DNA of 61,226 nt from Minisyncoccota bacterium (GCA_035994985.1 DASYKZ010000011.1:1-61226), one strand, 5' to 3'; positions 29,709 through 43,615 are shown, numbered from the stretch's first letter. Notes: a model not told the origin generated them from the sequence alone. Made by a program: numbers and translations.

Positions 29709-31109
29709 CTACTTCAGATTAAGCTCCCAAAGATAGGAATCTTTTTTATTCACAAAAAATAGGTAGTTTTCATTTGTGTCAAGCTCAAGTTTTATGCCGT
29801 CTATATCTTCTCCACTAGGGATCAAAAATGGGTCTGCAATCATTGAGGTATTTCCGTCAGCCAAGCTTATTCTCCAGATTTGGTCAGAAAAAGAAATTTC
29901 CCCGCGGTACCAATCATCCGGATAGGCTGCCCCTTCAAGCGATACGGGGACTGCGCAATAAATAAACTCAGCTGTTTTATTCCATGTACATTTTTCGGGC
30001 AGAGTTTTTACTCCGAGCGCGTCATAGGCCTTTGTGTCCGTATGGTATACATATAATTCCAAATTATTATTGGCCACCAGGACGAGTTTTCCATTTGGGC
30101 TCATGAGCGCGGTTAATCCGTTTACATTGCCTAAGACTTGGATTAGATTTTTTTTATCTATGTCAACCGTATACATATATCCAGGAACTCCAGCTGAAGG
30201 CTTGGTCGTCAGTGTTATGGTTCTATTATTTCCCCAGAAAGAATTCCATTCTGTAAAAGCTGAATTAAATACGGAAGTTTTTTTACCATCCGCTAAATTT
30301 AAAACTGTGCCAGTTGCAGACCCGCCGGTGCTTAATAAATAAAATATTTTTGACTTATCCGGCGAAAGGCTGATATCTTTTATATCGTCTGTCAAAAAAT
30401 AGCCTTTGACTTCATTGGTTGGCATGTCTTCTCCTAATTTTTCTTTTGGCAGAGCGCCGACAAAAGTTTCTATAGTAGTTTCGTTTGGTTTTAAATGCCT
30501 CATGACCACGGATTGGCCGTTGTTGCCGAAATAAGCATCGTATATTTTAGGTATTACAATTCCTGAAAATTTTCGCTCAATTATTTTATCCGCAAACGTT
30601 TGGTATATGTTTCCTGTGGCCCGCTCTACATACCTAAGCGCCGCGGCAAATTCGGTCGGAGGGGCTATGGGCTTCGTAGTTACCTTTTTGGTTGTCGTAG
30701 TTGTCTTGGTCGTTGTTGTTGCCGGCGGGACGCTGGTAACTGTCTCTTGCTCCGTCGTGGTGACATTTACAGTAGTGCTGGGCGGCGCGATCGGTACAGG
30801 AATATCTTTCAGTCTTTCCTTGGAAAATATTGTAAATCCGGCGATAGGCATGCTGGAAATCTTTTTTAATTTTACTGCGGCCAGTTCTTCTTGTGTAATA
30901 GTTCCGTCTCCATTTGTATCTATCCCCGACGGTTCATCTCCCGGTGTCGGAGTATTGCTTGCAAAAGGATTGAACTGGGAAAGGAAATTTGTGCCGCTAG
31001 TTACGACATCGACAGGAGTCGTTCCGGAGCGGAGATATAAAAATCCAAAAAGCCCTGCTATTACCAGACCCAAGATGATTATTAATAGTATAAAGTTTCT
31101 TTTTGACAT
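29709..31109 (-). CDS. Membrane-anchored extracytoplasmic protein with beta-propeller (TolB/PD40-like) repeats
   Basis: It has an N-terminal TM, an EF-hand-like DTNGDGTITQEE, a Thr-rich linker, and repeated SPDKSKIFY / SPNGKLVL type blades. Confidence 0.5.
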   Translation of the reverse strand: MSKRNFILLIIILGLVIAGLFGFLYLRSGTTPVDVVTSGTNFLSQFNPFASNTPTPGDEPSGIDTNGDGTITQEELAAVKLKKISSMPIAGFTIFSKERLKDIPVPIAPPSTTVNVTTTEQETVTSVPPATTTTKTTTTTKKVTTKPIAPPTEFAAALRYVERATGNIYQTFADKIIERKFSGIVIPKIYDAYFGNNGQSVVMRHLKPNETTIETFVGALPKEKLGEDMPTNEVKGYFLTDDIKDISLSPDKSKIFYLLSTGGSATGTVLNLADGKKTSVFNSAFTEWNSFWGNNRTITLTTKPSAGVPGYMYTVDIDKKNLIQVLGNVNGLTALMSPNGKLVLVANNNLELYVYHTDTKAYDALGVKTLPEKCTWNKTAEFIYCAVPVSLEGAAYPDDWYRGEISFSDQIWRISLADGNTSMIADPFLIPSGEDIDGIKLELDTNENYLFFVNKKDSYLWELNLK

Positions 31110-31151
31110 ACAGTTATTTTAACATACTTGTTCTACGTTTTTTCTTCGCTG

Positions 31152-32288
31152 TTAACGAATATTACAATATTCGTATATATTTGGTATTGTCCCTATGACT
31201 GTACCAGCCATATTCACTTGCGGCACATTTTTTGGTGCTGGTAACTGCGGAGAGTATTGACGAATGCATGCTGCGTTTCGGCATGGTTTTTGAGTCACTA
31301 GCCAGTCTCTATAATCTGGTTGCTTTAGTACTAACTGCGCAGCAACTGATGAGCTGCAGGCAAAATTATTCGAAGCCTTAATGCATAAGTTTGACCTTTG
31401 ACGGCATCCAAGTGGTCCAGATGATACTCCAGCAGCCGCATAACAAACTGGATTCTCAAACAGTTGGCTGTGTGATTGTATTAATACCTGGAAAGGTCCG
31501 TTTGCGGATGACCCGCTATTCCAATTAAAGTTTTTTACAGGTTTACATCCACTACTCTCCATGCTCGCAATACAACTCATAGTAGTTGCTTGTATTTCAG
31601 TGACCGGGTGTCCGGATTGCTCGGCCGCTTTTACAATTTCCCTATAATCGCAGGTAGTACCAATACTGCTTTGAATAATAGGCCCTCCTGGAGTAATAAT
31701 TTTTGTTTTCAAATCTGCTATCGTAAACTCCCCCTGACTCGTCAGCGTCCCGCTCCCCACATCCACATCAGTATTCAGCAAATCAGGATTGATAGTAAAC
31801 AGGATAGTATATGCTCCAAGGGCCAGAATGAGCCCGAAGATAGCCCCCTGTATCCGCTCCTTGGCCGCAGACTTGCTGGAGATAAGCTCACTGGTGGCAT
31901 ACTCTATGCCCCCTATCACAATCATGACCACTGCCGCTACGGCGCAGAGGCCTATGAACAAGCGTATGGCAAAGTTCAGGTATTCACCGAGCTTGCCTGC
32001 GCCGCCGGGGTTGAAAGCTACAAGCTTGCCATCTTCGCAACCTTGTTCTTTTGTGCCTGTGCAGCCGGGGAGGGGGGCGAGGAGATGATAACTGGTATCG
32101 GCTTTGGTTGATATTGCTGCTCCTGACTCGTTAATTATGTTTCCTTCCGGGTCTTTGCAGGGCGCATTATTCGGTGTGTTTTTATCAGGATCATATGTAC
32201 AATTTACCTGTGCTTGGACTCTTACTGCTATGCCAAATATTCCACTTAGTATGATTAATATTAGGATGTATGGTAAAAATTTTTTCAT
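31152..32288 (-). CDS. VirB2/TrbC-type T4SS pilin domain fused to a Cys-rich lytic-transglycosylase-like domain
   Basis: The signal peptide is MKKFLPYILILII...VQAQ. A two-helix pilin core follows: LNFAIRLFIGLCAVAAVVMIVIGGIEYATS...AKERIQGAIFGLILALGAYTILF. The C-terminal part has MESSG...SSANGPFQVLIQ, resembling the SLT E-S...GLMQ motifs. Confidence 0.55.
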   Translation of the reverse strand: MKKFLPYILILIILSGIFGIAVRVQAQVNCTYDPDKNTPNNAPCKDPEGNIINESGAAISTKADTSYHLLAPLPGCTGTKEQGCEDGKLVAFNPGGAGKLGEYLNFAIRLFIGLCAVAAVVMIVIGGIEYATSELISSKSAAKERIQGAIFGLILALGAYTILFTINPDLLNTDVDVGSGTLTSQGEFTIADLKTKIITPGGPIIQSSIGTTCDYREIVKAAEQSGHPVTEIQATTMSCIASMESSGCKPVKNFNWNSGSSANGPFQVLIQSHSQLFENPVCYAAAGVSSGPLGCRQRSNLCIKASNNFACSSSVAAQLVLKQPDYRDWLVTQKPCRNAACIRQYSPQLPAPKNVPQVNMAGTVIGTIPNIYEYCNIR

Positions 32289-32291
32289 TTT

Positions 32292-33290
32292 TTAAAACTC
32301 CACATTTATTTGCTTGCTGGCAGTTCCGAGAAGCTGTTCGTTGTTTTCAAGCTCTAAGCTTAAAGTGGAAACTCCCGAAACTCCGCTTTCCACTTTAACA
32401 GGCAGCCAGTTTTTCCTGTAATCAAGTATGTTATTTGTCAAATTGCCGTTGATAAACCAATTCCATACCAAGCTTGGGCTCCGGAGTTCTTTTGGTGATA
32501 TAAAATAAGGCTCCGCTACTATAATCTCATCTCCCAGTATCTTGTGTCCGCCCTTGAGCGCCTGCTCCCATATTGTTCCCAGAATGGCGTCGTTTTTGTA
32601 AAATGATATTTGCGGCTGGGACACCCTTATGTCCAAACTTGCCTCGAGCGAACGCTGCCCGTCCGTGGTCGAAGCCGTTACTGACACCGTATCTCCATTT
32701 TCCAAATAATCATTTGTAAAAGTAAAAAAATTCTTGCCATAGCCGGATCCTTCGGCATCGTTCGTGTAATTTTTTTTCCAGGCATAGACTATATTTTTAG
32801 GGCTTACTATGCCGGATGCGTTTTTTATTTCAGGCATAGCCACCACCTTTATTTCACTGTCAGCCGTCGGCAGCGCTTTCCCGCGGTAAAATGGCGGAAC
32901 ATGAGAATCAGTAGCTTCATAGAGCAGCACCATAACAGCAGGGCTTATCACCACCTTCTTTTCTAATTCTCCATCCGGGAAGGCTAACACAACCCGTACA
33001 GTAGTAGTGGAACCCACAGCCGGAGCGGCTACGGTAAAAGATTTTCCCCCGATTTCAGATGAAACTTTCTTGCCGTTTACAAACCAAGATATGGAAATAC
33101 TGTCTAAGCTCGTTGCATAGCTGCTCAATGTTATGGTTGTGTTTTCTCCCGCGCTTGGACTCTGGGGGGACAAATCTACAGATATGGCGCTTGGTGAAAT
33201 CGCAGCGTTTCCCTGAAATGGGAAAACAAATACCAGTATAGCGATTATCGCAACTCTTATGCCTGAATATAATGATATTTTTGGTTTCAT
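32292..33290 (-). CDS. Secreted protein of unknown function
   Basis: It has a signal peptide (…FPFQGNAA), a beta-rich sequence, and a 3-nt gap to the next gene. Confidence 0.5.
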   Translation of the reverse strand: MKPKISLYSGIRVAIIAILVFVFPFQGNAAISPSAISVDLSPQSPSAGENTTITLSSYATSLDSISISWFVNGKKVSSEIGGKSFTVAAPAVGSTTTVRVVLAFPDGELEKKVVISPAVMVLLYEATDSHVPPFYRGKALPTADSEIKVVAMPEIKNASGIVSPKNIVYAWKKNYTNDAEGSGYGKNFFTFTNDYLENGDTVSVTASTTDGQRSLEASLDIRVSQPQISFYKNDAILGTIWEQALKGGHKILGDEIIVAEPYFISPKELRSPSLVWNWFINGNLTNNILDYRKNWLPVKVESGVSGVSTLSLELENNEQLLGTASKQINVEF

Positions 33291-33343: not shown

Positions 33344-35230
33344 TTACAATTTCCCCTCTTTGGCCGCTGTCTCATAATCCTCTTTGGCTTTCCGGTTTGA
33401 TAATATCTGCGACGGGTCGGAAGTTATAATCTGGTCTTCCGTATAAGAAGCGACCACTTTTATGGCTACGTGCTTTAATCCCGCGAAGAATATGCCCTCG
33501 CCGACACCGGATTCTAAAAGCAGGTATTTTTCTTCATCTGTAAGGTTAAAAGTTTTTTGCAGCACATCTATAGTGGTTGGCGACTGCTTTAAAAGAATTT
33601 GAATTGAAGAGTTGGTGACTATCGGCACTCCATATGGAGATTTCATAAAGTCTGCCGCGTCTTGGGTAATAGTGGCCAAGCCCAAGTAATATTTTCTTCC
33701 GCGCTTTGCTATAGAGTACAAAAAAGACGCCGTATCTTCAGATTTCATCATCCACCATGCCTCGTCTACCACCAAGAGGCGCTTCTTCAAATTTTTGCGT
33801 ATAGCATTCCAGATGAAGTGCATGATTATATACATTGCTACGGGTTTTAATTCGTCTTCCATATCGCGGATAGAAAAAACAACGAATTTTTTATTGATAT
33901 CCACATTGCTCGGCCTGTTTAGAAATGTTGACCACGACCCGCGGGTGTATTTTGCCAGCCGTGAAATTACAGAGTCAGATCCTTCCATGCCGGAGAGAAC
34001 CATTTCAAAATCTGAAAGCAGCGGCGGCTCAATATTTGAAAAATCTGACTGGGGGGTAATATCTTTCATGGCATACGTTTCGGAAATAGCGCGGTCCACC
34101 AGCGAGTCTTCTTCGGGGGTAAGTCCGCCGAGCATCAGGCGGAAGAGTCCCACCAGGTTGATTATATTTGAGCGCAATACATCTTCTGCAGTTTCATCCT
34201 CGCGGGGTATTGGCAGGTCAAACGGGTTCATATGGTGGTCGCTCGAGAGGGAAATATTAAAATATCTTCCGCCTACGGCCTCAGACAGGAATTCATATTC
34301 CCGCTCCGGGTCTATGACCATGACGTCAATATCAAACATCAGAGACCGCAAGATTTCGAGCTTAGTCGCGTAAGATTTCCCGGAACCTGACTTGGCAAAA
34401 GTCACGGAATTGTAATTTTCCAGTGAAAACCTGTCAAAGATGACCAGGCTTGAATTATGCCTGTTTATTCCGTATAAAATTCCCGTATCGGAAGTCAGGT
34501 CAAAGGAAACAAAGGGAAAGATGCTGGATAGCGGTTCAGAATTCAGTTTTTGATGTATATTAAGCAAGTCCGTGTTTATAGGGATGATGCTTTTAAAGCC
34601 TTCTTCCTGCTGGAACAGGGCCGGTTTTATATAAATAAGCCTCGATTCCAGAATTGATTTTATTTCATTTTCAACTTTAAAAAGCTCCATTTCATTGTCG
34701 GCATAAATTGTGATATAGATGCCCATATCAAACATTTTTTCCTGCGCTTGTATCAGGTTGTCGCGCAGGCCCTCCAGGTCTTCATAGGCGGTGTCGAGCA
34801 TCGGGTCCCGAACCATGCCTTTTTTCTCGCGTACGCTTATCTGGCTTTGCACCTCGGCTACTTTTTTCTGGAATTGGCGGAGCGCGAGCGACGTATCTAT
34901 CGGATGGATAAAAATTGAAATATCAAAAACTTTATCAAGGTTGATTATTGGAGAAAACCAATTGTCCGTCAAAAATCTCGGGTACGATATGATGAAAAAT
35001 GTGCGAGCTATTTTCTCTCCTAGATTTATGGATTTTGATTCTATCTTGAGCGCTGAAGGCGCTATGATATCCTGCAGTTCTATGCTGGCTGATTCATAAA
35101 TCTCCTCGGGCAATACCGGCATGACGGAAGCCCGCATTTCACCTCCTTTTGCGCTTGCGCGGCCCAAGCCGGCTGCCCTATTTTTTCCGCCAAATAATTT
35201 TTTAAAAAAGTCCATAATATTATTGCTCAA
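33344..35230 (-). CDS. VirB4/TrbE-family T4SS ATPase
   Basis: Walker A is FAKSGSGKSYATK and Walker B is LLVVDEAWWM, with ATITQD and an N-terminal VirB4-type domain. Confidence 0.85.
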   Translation of the reverse strand: MSNNIMDFFKKLFGGKNRAAGLGRASAKGGEMRASVMPVLPEEIYESASIELQDIIAPSALKIESKSINLGEKIARTFFIISYPRFLTDNWFSPIINLDKVFDISIFIHPIDTSLALRQFQKKVAEVQSQISVREKKGMVRDPMLDTAYEDLEGLRDNLIQAQEKMFDMGIYITIYADNEMELFKVENEIKSILESRLIYIKPALFQQEEGFKSIIPINTDLLNIHQKLNSEPLSSIFPFVSFDLTSDTGILYGINRHNSSLVIFDRFSLENYNSVTFAKSGSGKSYATKLEILRSLMFDIDVMVIDPEREYEFLSEAVGGRYFNISLSSDHHMNPFDLPIPREDETAEDVLRSNIINLVGLFRLMLGGLTPEEDSLVDRAISETYAMKDITPQSDFSNIEPPLLSDFEMVLSGMEGSDSVISRLAKYTRGSWSTFLNRPSNVDINKKFVVFSIRDMEDELKPVAMYIIMHFIWNAIRKNLKKRLLVVDEAWWMMKSEDTASFLYSIAKRGRKYYLGLATITQDAADFMKSPYGVPIVTNSSIQILLKQSPTTIDVLQKTFNLTDEEKYLLLESGVGEGIFFAGLKHVAIKVVASYTEDQIITSDPSQILSNRKAKEDYETAAKEGKL

Positions 35231-35861
35231 GCTTTATCTTGCCTTCCACTTCTCCTGGATTGAAAACTTTATAAAATACTTCCACCACTTCTTCGGTGCC
35301 GAGTCTGGCGGATTTTATGCCGCAGCGTGAAAGCCCCTGCTGTATCACTCCCACTCTCTGTTCAAGCTGGGACTTTTTTTCTTCAAAGTCTTCCTGTTTT
35401 ATAGCGGTCCTTTCTTCCCGGCTTTGCCGTTTAAAGAACCTGCCAAAAGTTCCGGAATCCGATTTCAGCGCAGTATTGCTGTAAGGCACGACAATAAAAA
35501 AAGTTTTTGTCATTATATTTACTGATTCTGTGAAGCTCCGGATGAATTCTATGTACTCCCTTGTTTGTATTTTTAAGAGCGGCTCATTCTGTACCTTGAT
35601 TCTATTTTCCAAAAGGAGAAGATAGGGGCGGATATCGAGCCTTCTCGACTGCACTGATATTTGGATGGGAAAATCCAATGTATTTAGAAAATTTTGAAAT
35701 TGGAGTATGGTTGCCCTTTGCTCGTCGTCTGATTTTAAAGAAAGGTTTACCGAATTGGCGAGGACAATAGCCCGCAGCCCGCCATCTTTGAGCATGATGG
35801 TCCCGTCCCGTACTTCTTTGATGGGCACAAATTCTTGAGTTGCTTTTGCGTTTAATGCCAT
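35220..35861 (-). CDS. Stand-alone protein resembling the VirB4 N-terminal domain
   Basis: The FVPIKEVRDGTIMLKDGGLRAIVLANSVNLSLKSDDEQ pattern is typical of VirB4/TraC N-termini. It overlaps the VirB4 start by 11 nt. Confidence 0.45.
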   Translation of the reverse strand: MALNAKATQEFVPIKEVRDGTIMLKDGGLRAIVLANSVNLSLKSDDEQRATILQFQNFLNTLDFPIQISVQSRRLDIRPYLLLLENRIKVQNEPLLKIQTREYIEFIRSFTESVNIMTKTFFIVVPYSNTALKSDSGTFGRFFKRQSREERTAIKQEDFEEKKSQLEQRVGVIQQGLSRCGIKSARLGTEEVVEVFYKVFNPGEVEGKIKLEQ

Positions 35862-35868: not shown

Positions 35869-36303
35869 TTATCCTTCTTTCTTTAAATCCAAAACGTCTA
35901 GGCTCCAGGCCAAGTCCCGCAATTTATTTCCGCTTAGCCGCAATCCGTTGCTTGAAAACGTATTCATTTTATTCTCTCCGTTTGCCATCCCCTCTATGGT
36001 ATTTGTCTTCCCTCCGGTTTTTATTTGGCGTCTTTTCCATACATAAAGCTTGCTTTGGAAGCCATATTTAAAACCTGCTTCCAGCATTTCTATAAAGGGT
36101 TTGTTGTTCGGCCGGTAAAAAGTAAGCATCCCGGCAAAACCCCCTACAATTAATATAGGTATGGCTCCCCAGATGAGCCCGAGCAGTTTGTAAAACACAA
36201 AGCATATTCCGGCTCCGCCTGCCAGATAAACAAACTCCCTAAAAGTGAATGGGCCGAAAATTTTATCTTCTATTTCTAAAAATTGTGGAACTTTAAATTG
36301 CAT
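35869..36303 (-). CDS. PrgI/VirB3-like small membrane protein
   Basis: Contains FKVPQFLEIEDKIFGPFTFREF followed by two TM helices, and sits directly upstream of the VirB4 genes. Confidence 0.65.
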   Translation of the reverse strand: MQFKVPQFLEIEDKIFGPFTFREFVYLAGGAGICFVFYKLLGLIWGAIPILIVGGFAGMLTFYRPNNKPFIEMLEAGFKYGFQSKLYVWKRRQIKTGGKTNTIEGMANGENKMNTFSSNGLRLSGNKLRDLAWSLDVLDLKKEG

Positions 36304-37127: not shown

Positions 37128-37625
37128 TTAATTTATCAACTTATTCTTTGTCTCTAATATATTTGAAGTGCCTAGAAGCTTATTCTTATTTTCTGTATCG
37201 GCATTAGTTTGGTTAGTGGCCTCGTCCATAAAAGCGGAATAATCTCCGCCGGAGATAATAAAATTAACGTTTTGCTCTACAGTAGGTTTTTTACTCCCAA
37301 GACCCTTCTTTATTTTTTCTTCCATGATATTTACTATCGGTTCAAATATTTTTTCAAATACTTCAGTGGCTATTTTTTCCGCGTCGTTTTTACTGGTACC
37401 CACTTCGTTTTCAAGATTGCCGACATATAAATTAGCTGATCGGATGCCGACTAATACAAGCAGGGTTTCTACCCGAAAATCATTTACTTCACTTTCACTC
37501 AGTAAATATTTTTTACCAAGCTCTTCTGTTATTTTAATCCAATCAATACTGCTGATAGCTTGCTGCATTTCTTTCGACAGCTTTGCTACTTCTTCTTTAA
37601 TTATTTGTTGTAATTTTTCAGTCAT
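37128..37625 (-). CDS. Hypothetical protein (paralogous N-domain with 36329-37111)
   Basis: See above. It is 165 aa and lies within the operon, with 5-nt and 16-nt gaps to its neighbours. Confidence 0.45.
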   Translation of the reverse strand: MTEKLQQIIKEEVAKLSKEMQQAISSIDWIKITEELGKKYLLSESEVNDFRVETLLVLVGIRSANLYVGNLENEVGTSKNDAEKIATEVFEKIFEPIVNIMEEKIKKGLGSKKPTVEQNVNFIISGGDYSAFMDEATNQTNADTENKNKLLGTSNILETKNKLIN

Positions 37626-37630: not shown

Positions 37631-40018
37631 TTATTTGGGTTTTTCTCCACTATCTACCTTTGTTCCGGCCAGTATCTTCCTCGCAGCTTCATCTGCTCCA
37701 GCTAGACTATACGCTCCTTGCTTCAATAACAAATTTCCAACTTTACTAAGTCCACCTTGTATTCCTTGAGTATAATCAACTCTAATTTTATTACTTTTAA
37801 CATCCAGCTCTGCTTTTGCCAAGTCTCTAGCTTTTTCAAGAGCTGGCAAGCCTGCATTAGTTCTGGCAGTTTTTTTCCTAGTTTTTACAGTTTCTAACTC
37901 TTCACCTAATTCCTCTGCTCTAGTATCATTGCCAGCTTTCATTGCGTCATCTATATCTTTTCTTACAGCCTCCATTTGTTTATCAAAAGTTTCTAAAGCT
38001 AGTTTTAATGGAATTGTTGCCTTACCATCTTTACCCAGAATCGCATTTCCGTCTCTATCTACCATCGCTATTTCTGTTGTTAACACTTTTTGATTAATAT
38101 CGTTCTCTGCATTATCAACAGCTTTTTTCTCCGCTGCCGTTCCTCTCTTTTCCAGTACTTCCGCTCTCTTCATCCTCTTTTCTTCCTGTTTTTTCTTCAT
38201 TTCATTCCATCCTCCTTCTTTTGCCTTACCAAATTTTATTCCAGTTGCTGATTCTAGGCTACCAAAGACTTTTAATGCACGCGGATCAAAGCTTCTATTT
38301 CTCAGAAAATCACTTGTACCTCTTAATCTATCAGCAGTGCCCGTAAACCCGGCTTTTTCCGCTGCTCCAGCTGCTTTGTTAGCAAGAGCACCCACCCCTC
38401 CTCCAATCAATTTTGTTGCTCCTCCTGATGCTGCGGTTAGGGCCAATCCTGCCACGACACCTCCGGCCATTTTTCCGTACTTTATTACAGCCTCTCCGAA
38501 ATCACCCGAGCCTTTTTTGGCGTATTCAGTTGCCTTGTGAAGCATGGTTATATATATAAGAGCAGGGATGGAAAGCATAATCAGCGTACGGGTAACTGAT
38601 GCATTCATACTTCCATTGGATAAATTACCTAATATATTTATTTGCACTAGTTTTGAGATTATTAATAGAAAGAACATAAAAACCGGAGCCATAAAGGCGA
38701 TACTGATCAAGCGTTTCAGCCACGCGTCCCAGCCCAGATAATCCAAACTCTTTAATTGCGGGATAGATAAAGACATAAAAGCAAAAGGTGAAAATATAAT
38801 CAGTATCCAAAGCTCGATAAGCCGGCCTATGAATGCTAGTCCGGCTACAAAAAATGCCCAGGCGGCAAATAAAAAGACAGCGCCACCAGTAAAAATTATT
38901 GCCAATGCAACGGATGCGGGAAGTTTTTTCTCATCACTGCTAATCAAGCCTCCGATAGCTTGTCCCAGATAGGTACAAGGATTTTTTTCAAGACCAATAC
39001 CAATTTGACTTGCCGCCCCATTCGCTAAAGTGTATGTGAGACAAGGGCCGGAAAAATAGCTTGCATATCCGCCGATAGCCTCGCCTGTCCCTGAATAATT
39101 ACCAGTAGTTATAGTGCTTGCCAAATCTTTATTGGTAGTAGGGTTTAAAAAATTAGTCGGATTAAAACCCGCTACTATGCCTCCGGCAATATCTTTTTCT
39201 TCTACTTGAGTTTTATTTTTGTCTGTGGCTGGTAAATAAGGAATTCCGCCGTCATTTATTGTTGCACCGGTTACTGCTGATGTTCCAGCGCCCACAGCTT
39301 TTGCTGTGGCGGTAGGAGGATGTACACTTATTTTATTATAGAAAATTAAAGCGAGAATATTCGAAGAATCTATCACTACCTCAGTCATAAACATACTAAA
39401 GTTTATCAGCAACGCAGCTACAATAACTTGTACTATCATTTTTTTAATTTCGGCGCCGCCAAGCCCCAAAATCATTTTAATAGCGATATACAGCAACACC
39501 ATTATAAAGAAGATGTTAGAGAAATCTCTTATAATTCTCCATGCTTCTGGCAAAAAATTACTCTTATACAAAACAGTGCTTAATGTCAGTGACAGCATTA
39601 TATTAAATATATATGCCGTCATATATAAAATTTTAGAACCCAATGTTATAAATATGAGGAAAAAAAATCTTATAATACAACCCTCAATAATTGCATCGCT
39701 TCCCAGGCTGCATTTTCCAAAAAGGGCTTCTGTTTTTGCTTGTTCTTGTTCCTCGGCTGCCTTTTTTTCTGCGTCTGTTTGCTGGGCAGCTGTAGGCGTT
39801 GGCGGAGTATTTTTAACCCAGCTTATATATGTTCCATTTCTTATATTCTTACATTCTGTTTCTGTTAAAGTATCTGTGCGTATTTCATCACGGTCCCCTT
39901 TCGCAGTACTATACGTACAAGTTCCCGGAGGCTCGTTTTCTGCTTGTACGCTTAACATCGGAGTAAAAAATCCTCCTGCTATTATTAATATTAAAATATA
40001 TGGTAAGAATTTCTTCAT
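37631..40018 (-). CDS. TrbL/VirB6-like polytopic membrane protein with C-terminal coiled-coil tail
   Basis: The signal peptide MKKFLPYILILII is identical to that of 31152-32288. It has at least 8 hydrophobic helices, a large loop, and a charged C-terminal ~250 aa. Confidence 0.6.
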   Translation of the reverse strand: MKKFLPYILILIIAGGFFTPMLSVQAENEPPGTCTYSTAKGDRDEIRTDTLTETECKNIRNGTYISWVKNTPPTPTAAQQTDAEKKAAEEQEQAKTEALFGKCSLGSDAIIEGCIIRFFFLIFITLGSKILYMTAYIFNIMLSLTLSTVLYKSNFLPEAWRIIRDFSNIFFIMVLLYIAIKMILGLGGAEIKKMIVQVIVAALLINFSMFMTEVVIDSSNILALIFYNKISVHPPTATAKAVGAGTSAVTGATINDGGIPYLPATDKNKTQVEEKDIAGGIVAGFNPTNFLNPTTNKDLASTITTGNYSGTGEAIGGYASYFSGPCLTYTLANGAASQIGIGLEKNPCTYLGQAIGGLISSDEKKLPASVALAIIFTGGAVFLFAAWAFFVAGLAFIGRLIELWILIIFSPFAFMSLSIPQLKSLDYLGWDAWLKRLISIAFMAPVFMFFLLIISKLVQINILGNLSNGSMNASVTRTLIMLSIPALIYITMLHKATEYAKKGSGDFGEAVIKYGKMAGGVVAGLALTAASGGATKLIGGGVGALANKAAGAAEKAGFTGTADRLRGTSDFLRNRSFDPRALKVFGSLESATGIKFGKAKEGGWNEMKKKQEEKRMKRAEVLEKRGTAAEKKAVDNAENDINQKVLTTEIAMVDRDGNAILGKDGKATIPLKLALETFDKQMEAVRKDIDDAMKAGNDTRAEELGEELETVKTRKKTARTNAGLPALEKARDLAKAELDVKSNKIRVDYTQGIQGGLSKVGNLLLKQGAYSLAGADEAARKILAGTKVDSGEKPK

Positions 40019-40023
40019 TTCAA

Positions 40024-42219
40024 TTATCGTGTTGGATACGTTGGAGTGGATGAATTCTTATAATCAGCTATGTCTGTTTTGAACACTACGTCGCAGTTTA
40101 TGTCGCTATTACCGTATGAGCTACAGAATACACTCTTTTCTGTATCTTTGCTGGATTTATTAAATACGCTGTTTTCTCCGCCCGGATTTGCCCAGCCTTT
40201 TATTCTTCTCTCTTGGGAGCATGCGTCAAATGAAGTGCCCAAGCTGAAGAGCTTGTCTCTTGCGTCAGCCAATTTGTTTTCAACGTCATTTACACTGCTA
40301 GAAGTAGAGATATCCAAAATCATTCCGTCATATCTTTGTTTCAATCTTACCATTGTCGCCTCCCCTCCCGTACCTGGGTCCGGCTGTATATTTAAAGTGT
40401 TCAACTCGGCTTGGATAGACTGAAGTTTTATAAGTGTCTCTCTTATGACGTTTTCCCTTGCAGTCATAGTATCTGCCTGTTCGTTTATGATACTTATTGA
40501 GCTTACCGCGCTTAGATAACTCGTAGTTCCCGGAAGCTCAAGCTTCATTTTATTGGTCAGCCATTCCTTGAATGAATCAGCTGCCGATTTTTTATTGTTA
40601 TATGTCGCATCGTCAGAGCTTGTTTTTTGTATATCCGCATCCAATCTGGCCTGCCATCCGAGGTTTGGCCCAGGTATGCACATGTCGAGCTCTTGTGTTT
40701 TTGGCCAGATACTGTCAAATAGCTGCAAAAGCCCTGGAGTGTATGCCAAGTCATTTGTCATCTTGCCGTTGGCGGAGCCATCTATCGATATGATTTCTTT
40801 GTTTCCATTAGCTATGGCATTTTGCACGTCTTTTTTGAAAGTTCCAAGAACCACAATTTCGTCTGGTCCTCCCCAATTGAATCCGGTACTGGTTCCGGTA
40901 TTTGGGTCGCTGCCCAGGGTCTGGCCATCATAGCTGAAGTTATCGTTATTATTATTAGCGCTGCTTCCTGTTTTACTAGAAAGAGCATTTAGTCCGGAAG
41001 ACATCAATTTATTTAACAAAGCATCGAAAATTGCTGAAAGGCTGTTGCCCATAGCCGCCCCCAACTCAGTTTGAGAAAAAGGACCATTTACGGCTTTTAT
41101 TATTTGTCCGGCTACCACAGACCCCGGAGTAGTGTTTATTAGACCCGAACTTCCGTCAGGTCTTGGTGGGCATACTTTTGTACTTATCCAGTCAGCTTGT
41201 GTTTTGTCAAAAGCTTTAACTGCTGCCTGATACTTAGCATTACATTGTCTATATTCAGGAGTGTTATATCTTCCAACAAAATCTTCATCGCAAGTATTTA
41301 CTGGCCGGGTACCTATAACTTTATAGCTTGGTGGTTGCTGAAATTCATTCTTAAGATTATTATAGCTGGGATTTGTAGAACAAGTCTGCGGCGATAAGAA
41401 ACCTTGACCTTGGGCGAGCAGGTCTTTAATTGTGTTTGCCGGACTAGATTCTGTGCCGGACAGCCTTCTCGCCTGTTCTTCCCCGACCAGGAGGTTGTAC
41501 CCTATTTCGTTATTTTGCGGAAACTGGGTAGTCAGCAGAAAACCGTCCCATCCGCCGGTGCTGAAATCGCTTCTAAATCTATCCAGTAAAGCTGGGTCGT
41601 TTGTGACTTTACTCAAAGAGTATTGAGAATTTTGCTCAAAAGTACTTTTAAAGCTGTTTATAATGCCAAGTGCGGCATTTTTACCAAAGGGCTGTCTGAC
41701 GCTGTCATGACCAATAGTATTTACTAAATCCCTAATTTCAAATTTTGCTATATCTTTAAAGAAAGACCCCGGATTTTCCAGGAAAAGCGGTGCGCCGTGA
41801 AAGCCGGTATTTATCCAGTTTACCGTACTTTGGGTCATTTGGGCGAGCAACCTTCGGGCCGCAAATTTAAGGATATCTTTCAGAACCTCTTTGAGACACT
41901 CTTTATTTTTTAAATTTAGTTCGCCCTTGGCGGTTCCTAATATCGCTCCTGATATATTAGTAACTCCTGTATCATGAGTTGGCACCGCTAGTACTCCAGC
42001 TGCCGTTCCCGCAGCCTGTCCCGCCGTTCCCGCAGCCTGTCCCGCCGCTATCGCTGCTGCGCAAGCGCTTGCCGATTCCTGTTGGGCAGCCGTTTTTTTG
42101 GGTATAAAAAACAGAAAAGCGGGCATTAGTATCAAAACCATCAGAAGAATAGAAATAAATTTTTGAATTTTCTTATTTTTAATTGTTATTTTTTCTTTCA
42201 TTTTATTATAATTATACAA
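40024..42219 (-). CDS. Large membrane-anchored/secreted protein of unknown function
   Basis: It has an N-terminal TM, an Ala/Gly/Gln/Thr repeat, and about 650 extracytoplasmic residues. There is a 5-nt gap to the VirB6-like gene. Confidence 0.5.
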   Translation of the reverse strand: MYNYNKMKEKITIKNKKIQKFISILLMVLILMPAFLFFIPKKTAAQQESASACAAAIAAGQAAGTAGQAAGTAAGVLAVPTHDTGVTNISGAILGTAKGELNLKNKECLKEVLKDILKFAARRLLAQMTQSTVNWINTGFHGAPLFLENPGSFFKDIAKFEIRDLVNTIGHDSVRQPFGKNAALGIINSFKSTFEQNSQYSLSKVTNDPALLDRFRSDFSTGGWDGFLLTTQFPQNNEIGYNLLVGEEQARRLSGTESSPANTIKDLLAQGQGFLSPQTCSTNPSYNNLKNEFQQPPSYKVIGTRPVNTCDEDFVGRYNTPEYRQCNAKYQAAVKAFDKTQADWISTKVCPPRPDGSSGLINTTPGSVVAGQIIKAVNGPFSQTELGAAMGNSLSAIFDALLNKLMSSGLNALSSKTGSSANNNNDNFSYDGQTLGSDPNTGTSTGFNWGGPDEIVVLGTFKKDVQNAIANGNKEIISIDGSANGKMTNDLAYTPGLLQLFDSIWPKTQELDMCIPGPNLGWQARLDADIQKTSSDDATYNNKKSAADSFKEWLTNKMKLELPGTTSYLSAVSSISIINEQADTMTARENVIRETLIKLQSIQAELNTLNIQPDPGTGGEATMVRLKQRYDGMILDISTSSSVNDVENKLADARDKLFSLGTSFDACSQERRIKGWANPGGENSVFNKSSKDTEKSVFCSSYGNSDINCDVVFKTDIADYKNSSTPTYPTR

Positions 42220-42229
42220 TTTATGCCTA

Positions 42230-43093
42230 TTATTTCAATCTTTGGTTTATAGTATTTGCTAAATTATTAGTAGCTACCTCCAGCGCATCAGCATTTGTCT
42301 CATACTGGCTTATGCCACTCATTGCTACTATGACATCCGTGTCATAAACCCGTATATCGCTTACATTTTCTGAAAGCTTTTCAAGCGCATTGAGCATGTT
42401 TAAATGCAAATATGCCAAGCTTGGGGGTACATTTACCTGAGACATGTCCCGTATGATGTTGTTCATTTGTTTTATTATCGGGTCAAGCTGGGGTAGAACT
42501 GTTTCATCAATATCATTTTCATCAATTATTAATTTTTGCAATATGTAAGTTACTGTATATTTTATAGGGTATTTCGCATAAATTTTATTGAGCGTATCGT
42601 TGTAATTTTTTACTGCTTGCTTGCTGTCGTCTTGTATCACTTTCATATCAGTATAAACAAATATTTTTTTAGCTTGCGGATTTTGTATTTTCCCCATCAA
42701 TGAATCCGTCAAAGTGTCTACCGTGGATTGGTCCACCCCGCCTGCTTGGTTCAGGGCGGCGACAGTAGAAAAAAGCTCCCTCGAAAATTGGTCTGTCTGG
42801 GTAAGCGCCCCTTCGTCTCCTTGTATATTTAAATTAAGCTCACCATTTTGCGCTGTTTGCCCCTGCCGCCTGGCTATTTCAATATTATCCGGCACTCCGT
42901 CGTCATTCGTGTCTTTTTTGGTGGGGTCAGTGCCGTACAAGCTTTCTTGCCAGTCCGATACTCCGTCTTCATCTGTGTCTCTCTCTACGAGGTCTGCAAC
43001 CTGTTCATTTCCGTTATACACCAAGCCGTCTGCCCTTGTATTTTTAAAGATAGTTTTGTTCTTAAAAAGGAAAAGAGACACGACAAAAAGCAC
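42230..43093 (-). CDS. Membrane-anchored protein with thrombospondin type 3-like Ca-binding repeats
   Basis: It has an N-terminal TM and DTDEDGVSDWQE..GTDPTKKDTNDDGVPDN. It is the first gene of the cluster. Confidence 0.5.
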   Translation of the reverse strand: MLFVVSLFLFKNKTIFKNTRADGLVYNGNEQVADLVERDTDEDGVSDWQESLYGTDPTKKDTNDDGVPDNIEIARRQGQTAQNGELNLNIQGDEGALTQTDQFSRELFSTVAALNQAGGVDQSTVDTLTDSLMGKIQNPQAKKIFVYTDMKVIQDDSKQAVKNYNDTLNKIYAKYPIKYTVTYILQKLIIDENDIDETVLPQLDPIIKQMNNIIRDMSQVNVPPSLAYLHLNMLNALEKLSENVSDIRVYDTDVIVAMSGISQYETNADALEVATNNLANTINQRLK

Positions 43094-43243
43094 CGCAAGA
43101 GCTATAAAAATAACCTTTTTTTGTTTTAACCAGCTTAATTTAATTATGTTTTTATTATATCATTTTTTAAAATTAATAGTGCCAAAAATTCATCTGTTAA
43201 TAAGTATATTAGTTCAAAAAAAGATTAAGAGTATAATGGATAT

Positions 43244-43615
43244 ATGAAAAATTACCCACATATCTTTTTTGTCGCGGTGGCGGTACTTTTTGTGGTATTT
43301 GTAAATCTGCTTTTACCTCAACAAAGCCTTGCTGTTTCAGCATTTGGAGGACAAATTCCAAAAGAAGGAGGGCCAACTGGCCTGTCAGTTCTTCCGTGTA
43401 CAAATGGCCTTCTTTTAACAATTGGACCTCCCAGAGGAGGCTTATTTTTACTACCGCCAACAGCAAAAGTTTACGCACATTACGGTATTGTGCCCACTGT
43501 GTGGACATTAGGTCTATTTATACCAGGAGGAGTATGCACGATTGGGCCATTACACATTCCGGCAACAGGGACCATTGTAAATATAGGTGTCTCGCTCCCT
43601 TCTCCTTCGCAGTAA
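43244..43615 (+). CDS. Small secreted hypothetical protein
   Basis: It has a signal peptide (…LLLPQQSLAVSA) and is Gly/Pro-rich and beta-like. It is divergent from the T4SS-like cluster. TATAAT lies at 43232-43237. Confidence 0.45.
   Translation: MKNYPHIFFVAVAVLFVVFVNLLLPQQSLAVSAFGGQIPKEGGPTGLSVLPCTNGLLLTIGPPRGGLFLLPPTAKVYAHYGIVPTVWTLGLFIPGGVCTIGPLHIPATGTIVNIGVSLPSPSQ

What the first reader, a model, noticed from the sequence alone, without database searches (positions are those of the whole stretch)
29709..43615. Eleven-gene single-strand cluster for a T4SS-like envelope machine with no relaxase or coupling protein in sight
Seen directly: from 43093 down to 29709, all genes are on the minus strand. 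Gaps are 3-53 nt, and one pair overlaps by 11 nt. In order they encode the following. (1) A TM protein with thrombospondin-type Ca-binding repeats. (2) A 731-aa anchored extracellular protein. (3) A polytopic TrbL/VirB6-like protein with a long charged tail. (4, 5) Two paralogous soluble proteins. (6) A PrgI/VirB3-like protein. (7) A stand-alone VirB4-N-domain-like protein. (8) A VirB4 ATPase (GSGKS, DEAW). (9) A secreted protein. (10) A VirB2-type pilin fused to a lytic-transglycosylase-like domain. (11) An anchored beta-propeller protein. A small secreted protein is encoded divergently (43244-43615). Established knowledge: VirB3/VirB4/VirB6/VirB2/VirB1-type functions form the core of Gram-positive-style type IV secretion systems. 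Conjugative versions also need a VirD4-type coupling ATPase and a relaxase, neither of which is visible in the 61 kb. The cluster is flanked by core genes (jag, rsmA) close to the origin rather than by mobile-element genes. Inference: it is a chromosomal, non-conjugative T4SS derivative. It might be used for protein delivery or attachment to a host cell, or for DNA uptake in the manner of the Helicobacter ComB system. At least five components have no recognisable family.
Basis: partly seen in the sequence, partly recalled or inferred. Interest (0 to 1): 0.8.

Follow-up and report, generated by a model that had tools for sequence, protein, structure and literature searches.

The report
Patescibacterial chromosomal type IV secretion cluster
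This is the origin-proximal, non-conjugative type IV secretion gene cluster that ultra-small Patescibacteria (here a Paceibacteria/Nomurabacteria-type genome) carry as a core chromosomal locus. It is real and well conserved, but this kind of system, including its missing relaxase and its position near dnaA, was already described in 2023-2025.

Summary
Eleven co-directional minus-strand genes (29709-43093) have gaps of 3-53 nt and one 11-nt overlap. They sit between rsmA/uvrD and jag/yidC/dnaA/dnaN.

Profile searches confirm a VirB4 ATPase, a PrgI/VirB3 protein, and a stand-alone protein matching the N-terminal part of full-length VirB4 models (TrsD-like). They also confirm a VirB2-type pilin fused to a lysozyme/lytic-transglycosylase-like domain. 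The VirB6 call for the 795-aa polytopic protein rests only on weak hints. The beta-propeller call is essentially untested.

No VirD4 or relaxase is encoded in the 61 kb. The order uvrD-rsmA-g1..g11-jag-yidC-dnaA-dnaN recurs in 80 species-level Paceibacteria genomes, so this is a vertically inherited locus, not an integrated conjugative element.

The headline is therefore already known.

One point may be new. At the same syntenic position, the pilin carries interchangeable cell-wall enzyme domains (NlpC/P60, VanY, M15, YkuD, amidases, SLT, lysozyme-like), and these differ even between close relatives. I found no mention of this in the papers I read.

The parts
42230..43093 (-). g1, 287 aa: acidic protein with a bacterial TSP3 (thrombospondin type 3, Ca-binding) repeat. 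The true N-terminus probably lies about 16 codons upstream.
   Evidence: PF18884 scores 25.2 bits against a cut-off of 25. Orthologues occur in 34-35 loci at about 30% identity, always first in the cluster. The upstream in-frame peptide LSWLKQKKVIFIALAV matches orthologue N-termini, but no canonical start codon is present there.
40024..42219 (-). g2, 731 aa: N-terminally anchored, Cys-containing extracellular protein of unknown family with a coiled-coil-like C-terminal part.
   Evidence: One hydrophobic segment at residues 21-39 and 10 Cys. No Pfam or NCBIfam family. The profile against PDB gives only coiled-coil noise. Orthologues occur in 43-44 loci at about 29% identity.
37631..40018 (-). 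g3, 795 aa: polytopic membrane protein (signal peptide, small beta domain, about 7 TM helices, 190-aa charged helical tail). Candidate VirB6 equivalent.
   Evidence: The AF2 model has pLDDT 71.5, with TM helices at 111-229 and 347-503 and a tail at 604-784. Hydropathy shows 8 hydrophobic segments. Weak hints: hhalign against pSK41 TrsL (TrbL family) gives 40% probability, falling to 1.5% with alignment A1. NF045848 gives E 0.014. The top-ranked Foldseek hits are R388 TrwI/VirB6, at E 0.4-0.9. No TrbL Pfam hit in 48 of 48 relatives.
37128..37625 (-). g4, 165 aa: soluble protein, paralogue of g5 (shared about 110-aa N-terminal helical domain).
   Evidence: hhalign of disjoint families gives 99.5% probability, E 1.9e-22, over 109 columns. 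BLASTP gives E 0.002. No hydrophobic segment. No family.
36329..37111 (-). g5, 260 aa: soluble protein, paralogue of g4. In some relatives the two domains are fused in one protein.
   Evidence: One search shows g4-like and g5-like parts in one ORF in L034, L043, L010 and L003. No family.
35869..36303 (-). g6, 144 aa: PrgI/VirB3-type small membrane protein.
   Evidence: PF12666 PrgI at E 3e-8, 34.5 bits against a cut-off of 27; TcpE at E 1.3e-3. Present in 75-76 of 80 loci at 59% median identity.
35220..35861 (-). g7, 213 aa: stand-alone homologue of the N-terminal region of VirB4 (TrsD/TraD-like). Together with g8 it forms a split VirB4.
   Evidence: NCBIfam hits: NF045975 VirB4_plasma positions 102-237 of 894, E 1.3e-10; NF041427 TrsD, E 8e-5; NF045971 positions 2-124 of 752, E 9e-5; TIGR00929 positions 4-176 of 792, E 2e-4. 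Homologues sit between PrgI and VirB4 genes on Geobacillus and C. perfringens plasmids. Present in 80 of 80 loci at 72% median identity.
33344..35230 (-). g8, 628 aa: VirB4-family ATPase lacking the N-terminal region supplied by g7.
   Evidence: PF19044 at E 4.5e-25 and PF12846. NF045971 (CD1110 family) scores 366.5 bits against a cut-off of 325, matching model positions 184-733. GSGKS and DEAW motifs are present. More than 8000 relatives; the top 120 are 87-96% identical.
32292..33290 (-). g9, 332 aa: signal-peptide or N-terminally anchored protein, probably Ig-like beta-sandwich domains. Unknown family.
   Evidence: Hydrophobic segment at 5-23. Only weak Ig_3, BiPBP_C and PKD_3 hits, in 5-7 of 44 orthologues. 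No PDB relative. Present in 75 of 80 loci at 35% identity.
31152..32288 (-). g10, 378 aa: signal peptide, Cys-containing N-terminal region, VirB2-type pilin hairpin (residues about 99-166), and an extracellular lysozyme/lytic-transglycosylase-like domain (about 205-378).
   Evidence: PF18895 at E 6.4e-4, 20.2 bits, below the cut-off of 26.6. 56 of 67 proteins at this position hit PF18895, with a best E of 9e-10, and 5 hit TrbC. The AF2 model has hairpin helices H99-132 and H136-166, and the C-domain has pLDDT above 90. The profile against PDB hits C-type lysozymes at E 3.7e-4. The conserved Glu of 'ES' aligns with catalytic Glu35, and GPFQ aligns with GIFQ. The top fold hit is MltC, at E 0.5.
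29709..31109 (-). g11, 466 aa: N-terminally anchored protein with a Thr/Pro-rich linker and a conserved about 310-aa C-terminal domain of unknown fold (the beta-propeller call is unverified). It carries one EF-hand-like loop.
   Evidence: Hydrophobic segment at 6-24. EF-hand_5 at E 4.8e-4, in this orthologue only. PD40 and WD40-like hits in 2 of 40 orthologues. No PDB relative. 3,263 representative clusters at E<=1e-3 and 1,278 at E<=1e-30. Present in 69-70 of 80 loci at 43% identity.
43094..43640 (.). 548-nt spacer upstream of g1 holding the divergent 123-aa ORF (43244-43615, +) and an extended -10-like TGATATAAT. Probably the promoter region. The ORF is not a conserved part of the system.
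   Evidence: The ORF has a homologue in only 1 of 80 loci. The rsmA-to-g1 spacing is 85-220 nt in 15 loci and 515-1187 nt in 9. Sequence read. Promoter-like sites over the region occur at chance level.
43641..46450 (-). Upstream anchor genes rsmA/ksgA (43641-44396) and uvrD/pcrA-type helicase (44393-46450), on the same strand as the cluster.
   Evidence: PF00398 at E 2.7e-56; PF00580 and PF13361. Syntenic in the loci that reach this far.
24971..29697 (.). Downstream anchor genes dnaN (24971-26068, -), dnaA (26282-27637, -), yidC (28446-29201, +) and jag/R3H (29209-29697, +). jag is convergent with g11, with an 11-nt gap.
   Evidence: Pfam hits. yidC is found in 63 and dnaA in 57 of 80 loci, in the same order.

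Best explanation
**What it is.** The cluster is the Paceibacteria version of the chromosomal Patescibacteria-clade type IV secretion system. This machine derives from monoderm (MPF-FATA type) conjugation systems. It has become a fixed, vertically inherited, origin-proximal core locus.

**Likely working parts (shown or well supported).**
- A cytoplasmic-membrane platform made of PrgI/VirB3 (g6).
- A split VirB4 motor: the TrsD-like N-domain protein g7 plus the ATPase g8.
- Probably the polytopic g3 as the VirB6-like channel subunit.
- A VirB2-type pilin (g10) whose extracellular C-terminus carries a muralytic domain.
- Rapidly evolving surface proteins (g1, g2, g9, g11).

**Likely function (inferred).** The motor assembles a pilin-based, wall-cutting surface structure that bridges to the host cell the epibiont lives on, and opens a conduit without a relaxase. 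I favour uptake of host macromolecules or nutrients as the transported direction. Effector export is the main alternative.

**Confidence by step.**
- Identity as a non-conjugative T4SS: about 0.9.
- Role at the host interface: about 0.6.
- Import direction: about 0.4.
For: **Core parts pass profile tests.**
- VirB4 is above the curated cut-off.
- PrgI is above the gathering score.
- g7 matches the N-terminal 120-180 positions of four full-length VirB4/TrsD models, while g8 matches the same models from position about 184-286 onward.
- The PrgI-g7like-VirB4 triad recurs on Firmicutes plasmids.
- The order TrsC-TrsD-TrsE is the same on pSK41.
- The pilin domain is found in 56 of 67 syntenic orthologues.
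- The lysozyme-like domain has its catalytic Glu aligned.

**Fixed chromosomal position.** The order uvrD-rsmA-g1..g11-jag-yidC-dnaA-dnaN recurs in the 80 best of 591 related loci, all Paceibacteria-type genomes.

**No conjugation parts.** No T4CP, relaxase or integrase lies next to the cluster.

**Conservation gradient.**
- Cytoplasmic motor: VirB4 85% and g7 72% median identity.
- Surface parts: 29-43%.
- The enzyme domain on the pilin is swapped between at least 8 cell-wall enzyme families, even among genomes whose VirB4 is 87-90% identical. This fits a host-facing interface.

**Literature.**
- The homologous system of Southlakia epibionticum is essential for epibiotic growth, has pilins, and has no recognised T4CP or relaxase. 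comEC is dispensable (PMC10633639, PMC12857230).
- The Patescibacteria VirB4 clade is nested in MPF-FATA, TrsD/PrgI/VirB2 are widespread, and the cluster lies near dnaA/ksgA (PMC12102498).
- Tubular structures between a cultivated representative and its host have been reported, along with host-RNA feeding (bioRxiv 10.64898/2026.06.21.733656).
Against: - No experiment exists for any Paceibacteria system, and the transported substrate and its direction are unknown.
- The VirB6 assignment fails Pfam in all 48 relatives. It rests on position, topology and three sub-significant hints.
- No VirB8-like component was recognised.
- The muralytic domain could simply serve the machine's passage through the cell's own wall (the classical VirB1 role). 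The genome does make peptidoglycan: PBP1A, DAP epimerase and a racemase are in the window.
- The set of 80 loci was chosen by VirB4 similarity, which inflates VirB4's apparent conservation relative to its neighbours.
- A VirD4-like gene probably exists elsewhere in the genome (PMC12102498), so T4CP-dependent export is not excluded.
Confidence: 0.6

Rival explanations
1. It is an effector-exporting T4SS. The machine injects or releases proteins into or onto the host bacterium to subvert it, as proposed for Saccharibacteria. The pilin-hydrolase is itself one of the delivered activities.
For: - Published speculation (PMC10633639, PMC11665869).
- Secreted or anchored, fast-evolving proteins are encoded in the cluster.
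- Precedents exist for T4CP-less exporters, namely Ptl and Brucella VirB (PMC12102498, PMC12857230).
- VirD4-like genes exist elsewhere in most Patescibacteria genomes (PMC12102498).
Against: - No effector-like gene with a recognisable toxin or enzyme domain lies in the cluster, apart from the pilin-borne wall enzyme.
- No T4CP is in the cluster, and the T4CP is non-essential in S. epibionticum although the T4SS is essential (PMC12102498).
- Nothing here discriminates export from import.
Confidence: 0.3
2. It is an ordinary integrated conjugative element, or a remnant of one. Its relaxase, T4CP and oriT lie outside the window.
For: - The VirB4 best matches a conjugation family (CD1110).
- The window does hold mobile-element genes about 20 kb away: a DGR, a Pif1 helicase, two serine recombinases next to tRNA-Lys, and a Xer-like integrase at 49896.
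Against: - The chromosomal slot and gene order are the same in 80 species-level genomes.
- Core genes sit on both sides, with 11-nt and 85-220-nt spacers.
- GC content is no different from the rest of the window.
- No relaxase or T4CP lies within 61 kb, nor within +-10 kb of the 80 loci by tblastn.
- Only 109 relaxases were found in 3,035 Patescibacteria genomes (PMC12102498).
Confidence: 0.04
3. It is a ComB-like natural-transformation system that takes up free DNA.
For: - The Helicobacter ComB system is a precedent for an importing T4SS (PMC11665869).
- In the ABY1 class, T4SS loci sit next to comF, recG and radA (PMC12102498).
Against: - In S. epibionticum, competence depends on comEC and type IV pili. 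comEC is dispensable while the T4SS is essential (PMC10633639, PMC12857230).
- ComB is a diderm VirB7/9/10-containing system. None of those parts is found here.
- No competence genes flank this cluster.
Confidence: 0.06

Closest known systems
Patescibacteria-clade T4SS (Quinonero-Coronel et al. 2025, PMC12102498; S. epibionticum SEML1_0006-0019, Wang et al. 2023, PMC10633639)
   Same: - VirB4, TrsD-like protein, PrgI/VirB3 and VirB2-like pilin are all present.
- No relaxase and no T4CP lie nearby.
- Location is chromosomal, next to dnaA/dnaN/ksgA.
- The VirB4 is 87-96% identical to proteins named from Paceibacterota/Nomurabacteria genomes.
   Different: - There is a single pilin gene rather than the pilin arrays of Saccharimonadia and Microgenomatia.
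- The pilin is fused to a wall-enzyme domain, rather than having separate peptidase and lysozyme genes downstream of virB4.
- Six further genes (g1, g2, g4, g5, g9, g11) have no counterpart named in those papers.
pGO1/pSK41/pIP501-type Gram-positive conjugation system (MPF-FATA subclass with TrsC-TrsD-TrsE)
   Same: - The gene order is the same: small membrane protein, then TrsD-like protein, then VirB4.
- It is a monoderm architecture without VirB7/9/10.
- A muralytic protein and a polytopic TrbL-like protein are present.
   Different: - pSK41 has a VirD4-like T4CP (TrsK), relaxases and a topoisomerase, and it is plasmid-borne.
- Its muralytic TrsG is a separate CHAP protein.
- Sequence similarity outside VirB4 is marginal: hhalign probability is 99.4% for VirB4 but at most 40% for everything else.
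PrgI-(g7-like)-VirB4-large protein-M23 peptidase modules on Bacillus, Geobacillus and Clostridium megaplasmids
   Same: The g7 family profile matches their roughly 315-aa proteins at 99% hhalign probability, in the same position between PrgI and DUF87/VirB4.
   Different: - These modules are plasmid-borne, next to Tad/T2SS-F-type pilus genes.
- There is no pilin-hydrolase fusion.
- Their function is also unknown.
Helicobacter pylori ComB DNA-uptake T4SS
   Same: It is a T4SS without relaxase or T4CP that works in the import direction. This serves as a model for 'works like'.
   Different: ComB is a diderm system with ComB7/9/10, and it cooperates with ComEC. No homologous outer parts are found here, and the comEC link is excluded in S. 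epibionticum.

Membership tests
Type IV secretion system (VirB4-based) | VirB4-family ATPase with Walker A and B motifs | tested here: met
   PF19044 at E 4.5e-25. NF045971 scores 366.5 bits, above its cut-off of 325. GSGKS and DEAW are in the sequence.
Type IV secretion system (VirB4-based) | VirB3/PrgI-type small membrane partner encoded next to VirB4 | tested here: met
   PF12666 scores 34.5 bits, above its gathering score of 27. It lies two genes upstream of virB4.
Type IV secretion system (VirB4-based) | VirB6/TrbL-type polytopic channel protein | tested here: inconclusive
   - g3 has about 7-8 TM segments and a long tail.
- No TrbL hit in g3 or in any of 48 relatives.
- Hints only: TrsL hhalign 40% (1.5% with alignment A1), NF045848 at E 0.014, and top Foldseek hits to TrwI/VirB6 at E 0.4-0.9.
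Type IV secretion system (VirB4-based) | VirB8-like bitopic protein (NTF2-like fold) | tested here: not met
   No cluster protein hits VirB8, PrgL or TcpC models. Structure was not predicted for g9, g2 or g11, so a fold-level relative is not excluded.
Patescibacteria-clade T4SS (MPF-FATA-derived) | VirB4 belonging to the monophyletic Patescibacteria clade | not tested
   No tree was built. Indirect evidence: the nearest relatives (87-96% identity) are named Paceibacterota, Nomurabacteria or Minisyncoccia, and the best curated model is a monoderm conjugation family.
Patescibacteria-clade T4SS (MPF-FATA-derived) | TrsD-like protein (homologue of the VirB4 N-terminal region) associated with virB4 | tested here: met
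   g7 hits the N-terminal parts of NF045975 (E 1.3e-10), NF045971 and TIGR00929, and it hits NF041427 TrsD (E 8e-5). The TrsD subfamily cut-off (200 bits) is not reached (22.5 bits). This shows homology, not membership of that curated subfamily.
Patescibacteria-clade T4SS (MPF-FATA-derived) | VirB2-like pilin near virB4 | tested here: met
   The window protein alone is sub-threshold: PF18895 scores 20.2 bits against 26.6. However, 56 of 67 syntenic orthologues hit PF18895 at E<=1e-3 and 5 hit TrbC. The model shows the two-helix hairpin.
Patescibacteria-clade T4SS (MPF-FATA-derived) | Chromosomal, near dnaA/dnaN/ksgA, without an adjacent relaxase | tested here: met
   for the window; for 80 related loci.
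Conjugative element (ICE or plasmid transfer region) | Relaxase (MOB family) and oriT | tested here: not met
   No relaxase Pfam hit in any ORF of at least 110 aa in the 61 kb. tblastn with pSK41 Nes and MobV finds nothing in the window or the 80 loci. oriT was not searched. The rest of the genome was not available.
Conjugative element (ICE or plasmid transfer region) | VirD4/TcpA-type coupling protein | tested here: not met
   None in the window nor in the 80 loci by tblastn with TrsK, which is a low-sensitivity test. The whole genome is not testable here. The literature says most Patescibacteria genomes carry one elsewhere (PMC12102498).
Conjugative element (ICE or plasmid transfer region) | Integrase or att borders, and variable presence between related genomes | tested here: not met
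   Core genes abut both ends, and the slot is the same in the related genomes.
VirB1-type muralytic T4SS component (lysozyme-like superfamily) | Lysozyme or lytic-transglycosylase fold with a catalytic Glu | tested here: inconclusive
   - The profile of g10 relatives hits C-type lysozymes at E 3.7e-4, but the domain E-value is only 0.016.
- The conserved 'ES' aligns with Glu35, and GPFQ aligns with GIFQ. The second catalytic Asp is replaced, as in transglycosylases.
- The top fold hit, MltC, is only at E 0.5.
- No SLT Pfam hit for the window protein.
ComB-type DNA-uptake T4SS | ComB7/9/10 (VirB7/9/10) outer parts and functional coupling to ComEC | tested here: not met
   No VirB9 or VirB10 hits. 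No competence genes are in the window.

The most novel reading that the evidence does not exclude
In Paceibacteria the T4SS pilin gene is a cassette holder. A conserved VirB2-type hairpin displays, outside the cell, a cell-wall-active domain that is exchanged between species. The domains seen are NlpC/P60, VanY, M15, YkuD, amidase_2/5, SLT, SLT_2, 3D, and here a lysozyme-like domain not in Pfam.

If the pilin polymerises, the result would be a pilus or stub studded with wall-cutting enzymes matched to the host's peptidoglycan. That would be the device by which these epibionts breach the host wall, and a determinant of host range.

I did not find this fusion or the domain swapping described in the papers I read.
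Probability: 0.3. Interest if true: 0.7.

Novelty: already known. Interest (0 to 1): 0.35.

Why it matters
The T4SS is one of the few machines known to be essential for the epibiotic life of Patescibacteria, a group that makes up a large share of bacterial diversity. What it transports is still unknown.

This locus adds nothing new at the level of 'a non-conjugative chromosomal T4SS exists'. It does give a clean, fully syntenic Paceibacteria example in which three things can be read off the sequence:
- The motor is split into a TrsD-like protein and VirB4, and is under very strong constraint.
- Every surface part evolves fast.
- The single pilin carries an exchangeable wall enzyme.

The last point gives a directly testable handle on how the host wall is breached and on what sets host range.

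Tried and rejected
- **g7 against the cluster's own VirB4 N-terminus.** hhalign found nothing. The link to the VirB4 N-region only appeared with curated full-length VirB4 models.
- **First g4/g5 comparison.** The families were contaminated, sharing 25 members. I redid it with disjoint families.
- **g7 against PDB sequences.** Noise only.
- **g3 profile against PDB sequences.** Only coiled-coil noise from the tail.
- **Pfam on all 48 g3 relatives for TrbL.** None hit.
- **hhalign of g3 against candidate VirB6-like proteins of Firmicutes plasmids.** Nothing.
- **g11, g9 and g2 profiles against PDB.** Nothing usable.
- **Per-member Pfam for g11, g2 and g9.** Only scattered weak hits.
- **Foldseek of full-length g3 and g10 models.** No match at E<=0.001, so I use the top-ranked VirB6 and MltC hits only as hints.
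- **Promoter and terminator scans.** At chance level.
- **Rfam.** Only tRNAs.
- **The divergent 123-aa ORF as a system component.** Rejected, because it has a homologue in 1 of 80 loci.
- **The ICE hypothesis.** Rejected on synteny.
- **Whole-genome search for VirD4 or a relaxase.** Not possible. Only the window and +-10 kb flanks of related loci were available.

Full report
**1. Observation**

The ORF list shows eleven minus-strand ORFs from 43093 down to 29709. The spacers are 10, 5, 5, 16, 25 and 7 nt, then an 11-nt overlap (g7/g8), then 53, 3 and 42 nt.

The co-directional run continues upstream through rsmA (43641-44396), a UvrD/PcrA helicase (44393-46450) and three more genes to 49393. 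Downstream, g11 converges on jag/R3H (29209-29697) with an 11-nt gap. This is followed by yidC, the rnpA/rpmH region, dnaA (26282-27637) and dnaN (24971-26068). GC content in the cluster (0.38-0.435) is within the range of the window.

**2. Which gene calls hold**

- **VirB4 (g8).** Secure. PF19044 is at E 4.5e-25, and NF045971 (CD1110-family VirB4-like conjugal ATPase) scores 366.5 bits against a cut-off of 325. GSGKS and DEAW are in the sequence.
- **PrgI (g6).** Passes Pfam's gathering score, at 34.5 bits against 27.
- **g7, the 'stand-alone VirB4-N-domain-like' protein.** This call is correct and can be sharpened.
  - g7 matches positions 102-237 of 894 of NF045975 (E 1.3e-10), positions 2-124 of 752 of NF045971, and positions 4-176 of 792 of TIGR00929. 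It also matches the TrsD/TraD model NF041427 (E 8e-5).
  - g8 matches the same full-length models only from about position 184-286 onward. The two genes together therefore cover one full-length VirB4. This is the TrsD+TrsE arrangement of pGO1/pSK41-type systems, whose gene order TrsC-TrsD-TrsE I read from pSK41.
  - g7 homologues at 25-30% identity occur on 150 plasmid records, mainly Bacillus, Clostridium and Geobacillus plus haloarchaea. In the two I opened, the homologue sits between a 'PrgI family' gene and a DUF87/VirB4 gene. hhalign probability is 99%.
- **g4 and g5.** They share a paralogous N-terminal domain of about 110 aa. hhalign on disjoint families gives 99.5% and E 1.9e-22. My first comparison was contaminated. 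In some relatives the two are fused.
- **g1.** It has a TSP3 repeat just at threshold. Its listed GTG start cuts a TM helix in half. The in-frame upstream peptide matches orthologue N-termini but has no canonical start codon.

**3. The pilin-enzyme protein (g10)**

The window protein hits PF18895 (T4SS pilin) only below threshold (E 6.4e-4). However, 56 of 67 proteins at the same syntenic position hit it, with a best E of 9e-10, and 5 hit TrbC/VirB2.

The AlphaFold model has mean pLDDT 76.6, and above 90 in the C-terminal domain. It shows a signal peptide, the two-helix pilin hairpin (99-132 and 136-166) and a compact C-terminal domain.

A profile of same-architecture relatives hits C-type lysozymes in the PDB at a full-sequence E of 3.7e-4 and a domain E of 0.016. 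In that alignment:
- the family's conserved 'ES' aligns with the catalytic Glu35;
- 'GPFQ(I/V)' aligns with 'GIFQI';
- the second catalytic Asp is not conserved, as in lytic transglycosylases.

The best fold match is E. coli MltC, but only at E 0.5. 'Lytic-transglycosylase-like' is therefore reasonable but not proven.

The more interesting result is that this C-terminal domain is not the same in relatives. Across 67 syntenic proteins Pfam finds NlpC/P60 (13), VanY (9), YkuD (5), Amidase_5 (4), Peptidase_M15_4 (3), SLT_2 (2), SLT, Amidase_2 and 3D (1 each). The domain type differs even among genomes whose VirB4 is 87-90% identical to this one. Only one pilin gene is present in the window.

**4. 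What does not hold, or is only a lead**

- **g3 as VirB6.**
  - For: it has the right position, about 7-8 TM segments and a long charged helical tail.
  - Against: neither g3 nor any of 48 relatives hits TrbL/VirB6 in Pfam, and the family profile finds no VirB6 in the PDB sequences.
  - Three weak signals point the same way. hhalign against pSK41 TrsL gave 40% with one family alignment and 1.5% with another. NF045848 gave E 0.014. R388 TrwI/VirB6 chains rank first in Foldseek at E 0.4-0.9.
  - I rate the assignment likely (about 0.6) but unproven.
- **g11 as beta-propeller.** Supported only by PD40 and WD40-like hits in 2 of 40 orthologues. Its family is large: 3,263 representative clusters at E<=1e-3.
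- **g2 and g9.** No recognisable family. g9 shows weak Ig-like hints.
- **The divergent 123-aa ORF.** It has a homologue in 1 of 80 loci and sits in a spacer that varies from 85 to 1187 nt. It is not part of the system.

**5. Context**

The VirB4 has more than 8000 relatives. The 120 best, each representing a 90% cluster, are 87-96% identical and are named from Paceibacterota, Nomurabacteria or Minisyncoccia.

A scan of one genome per species found 591 related loci. The 80 best all show the order uvrD-rsmA-g1...g11-jag-yidC-dnaA-dnaN wherever the contig reaches, with only local exceptions.

Median identity to the window proteins:

| Protein | Median identity |
|---|---|
| VirB4 (g8) | 85% |
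| g7 | 72% |
| PrgI (g6) | 59% |
| g1, g2, g3, g4, g5, g9, g10, g11 | 29-43% |
| DnaA | 79% |
| RsmA | 57% |

The loci were chosen by VirB4 similarity, which favours VirB4 in this comparison.

Pfam over every ORF of at least 110 aa in the window finds no VirD4-type coupling protein and no relaxase. tblastn with the pSK41 coupling protein and relaxases finds nothing in the window or the 80 loci.

A small island at 1-10.5 kb holds a DGR, a Pif1 helicase, a methyltransferase and two serine recombinases next to tRNA-Lys. It is about 20 kb away and carries no transfer genes.

**6. Comparison with what is known**

This is the system described by Wang et al. 2023 (PMC10633639). In Southlakia epibionticum the T4SS genes SEML1_0006-0019 are essential for epibiotic growth. 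They include pilins and lack recognisable coupling and relaxase proteins.

It is also the system described by Quinonero-Coronel et al. 2025 (PMC12102498). They report:
- VirB4 in 2,417 of 3,035 Patescibacteria genomes;
- a monophyletic clade nested in MPF-FATA;
- TrsD as the most frequent companion, with PrgI/VirB3 common and VirB6 hard to detect;
- VirB2-like pilins near virB4;
- relaxases almost absent;
- frequent location next to dnaA, dnaN, ksgA, rnpA and rpmH in Paceibacteria and Microgenomatia.

The same paper counts 5,713 VirD4-like proteins in 2,918 genomes, mostly far from virB4. The absence of a coupling protein from this window therefore says little about the genome.

A 2025 review calls these systems unique among monoderm T4SSs for being essential and potentially piliated (PMC12857230). 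A 2024 perspective states that the role is completely unknown and raises the possibility of uptake (PMC11665869). A 2026 preprint reports tubular structures between a cultivated representative and its host, along with feeding on host RNA.

I did not find the pilin-enzyme fusion or its domain swapping mentioned in these papers. PMC12102498 notes only that VirB1 homologues are associated with virB4 in Paceibacteria.

**7. Mechanism**

- **Shown:** the parts list, the split motor, the fixed chromosomal position, the lack of adjacent DNA-processing genes, the conservation gradient and the enzyme-domain swapping.
- **From established knowledge of VirB3/VirB4/VirB6/VirB2/VirB1 functions:** VirB4 with VirB3 forms the inner-membrane platform that energises pilin extraction and channel assembly. 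VirB6 lines the channel. A muralytic enzyme opens the wall.
- **Inferred:** by topology (signal peptide, then two TM helices, then the C-terminus outside), the g10 enzyme domain is extracellular. If g10 polymerises like VirB2, the enzyme domains would decorate the outside of the filament.
- **Inferred:** rapid exchange of enzyme type fits adaptation to host wall chemistry better than the housekeeping task of piercing the producer's own wall, but the latter is not excluded.
- **Direction of transport:** open. I lean to import (about 0.4) for four reasons. No coupling protein is in the cluster. The T4CP is dispensable but the T4SS essential in S. epibionticum. These organisms have auxotrophies. 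Recent microscopy and RNA-feeding observations also point that way. Effector export stands at about 0.3.

**8. Verdict**

The finding is real, correctly read in its main lines, and ordinary for this phylum: already known as a kind. Its residual value is as a clean Paceibacteria exemplar, and in the pilin-borne exchangeable wall enzyme, which deserves a dedicated survey and a biochemical test.

Noticed in passing
window 83-2432: A diversity-generating retroelement. There is a 122-nt repeat pair at 394-515 (variable repeat, at the 3' end of ORF 83-514) and 864-985 (template repeat). All mismatches in the first 100 columns are A in the template copy against G or C in the other. An Avd protein (1030-1425, NF033474 at 84 bits, above the cut-off of 80) and a reverse transcriptase (1383-2432) are also present.
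   Followed up: partly
window 2582-10651: A small island next to the DGR: Pif1-type helicase (2582-4024), methyltransferase (4563-5174), and two large serine recombinases (7733-9073 and 9126-10499), ending at tRNA-Lys (10578-10651). It has no transfer genes.
   Followed up: no
window 37631-40018 and 31152-32288 (N-termini): The VirB6-candidate g3 and the pilin-enzyme g10 begin with the identical 13 residues MKKFLPYILILII. A similar leader followed by a Cys-containing motif is conserved in both families' consensus. This may indicate a shared, dedicated targeting or processing signal.
   Followed up: no
window 33344-35861; loci L001-L080: The motor proteins are unusually conserved. VirB4 is 87-96% identical across the 120 best 90%-clusters, with 85% median identity in 80 species, and g7 is at 72%. 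DnaA in the same loci is at 79%. The locus set was chosen by VirB4 similarity, so the contrast is partly biased.
   Followed up: partly
window 43093-43150: The listed GTG start of g1 truncates its N-terminal TM helix. The in-frame upstream peptide LSWLKQKKVIFIALAV matches orthologue N-termini, but no ATG/GTG/TTG precedes it (possibly an ATT or ATA start). An extended -10-like TGATATAAT lies about 60 nt upstream.
   Followed up: partly
L034:7862-8842, L043:7676-8662, L010:7621-8709, L003:7904-8902: In several related genomes the g4-like and g5-like domains are joined in one ORF of 326-362 aa. This shows a tandem-duplicated soluble domain of unknown function inside the T4SS cluster.
   Followed up: partly
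L081 (Geobacillus pGspE55-1) and L082 (C. perfringens pJFP838A): Firmicutes megaplasmids typed 'non-mobilizable' carry a PrgI, g7-like, VirB4, large protein, M23 peptidase module next to Tad/T2SS-F pilus genes, a sigma factor and a TlpA-like reductase. This is another relaxase-less VirB4 module of unknown function.
   Followed up: no
window 16709-18406: A PilB-type T2SSE ATPase (PF00437 at E 4e-114), that is, type IV pilus machinery. In Saccharibacteria this is needed for motility, host adhesion and competence. It lies about 11 kb from the T4SS cluster.
   Followed up: no
window 43244-43615: A 123-aa Gly/Pro-rich ORF with a signal-peptide-like N-terminus, divergent from g1. It has a homologue in only 1 of 80 related loci and lies in a spacer of very variable length. 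It may be a lineage-specific small secreted protein or not a gene at all.
   Followed up: partly
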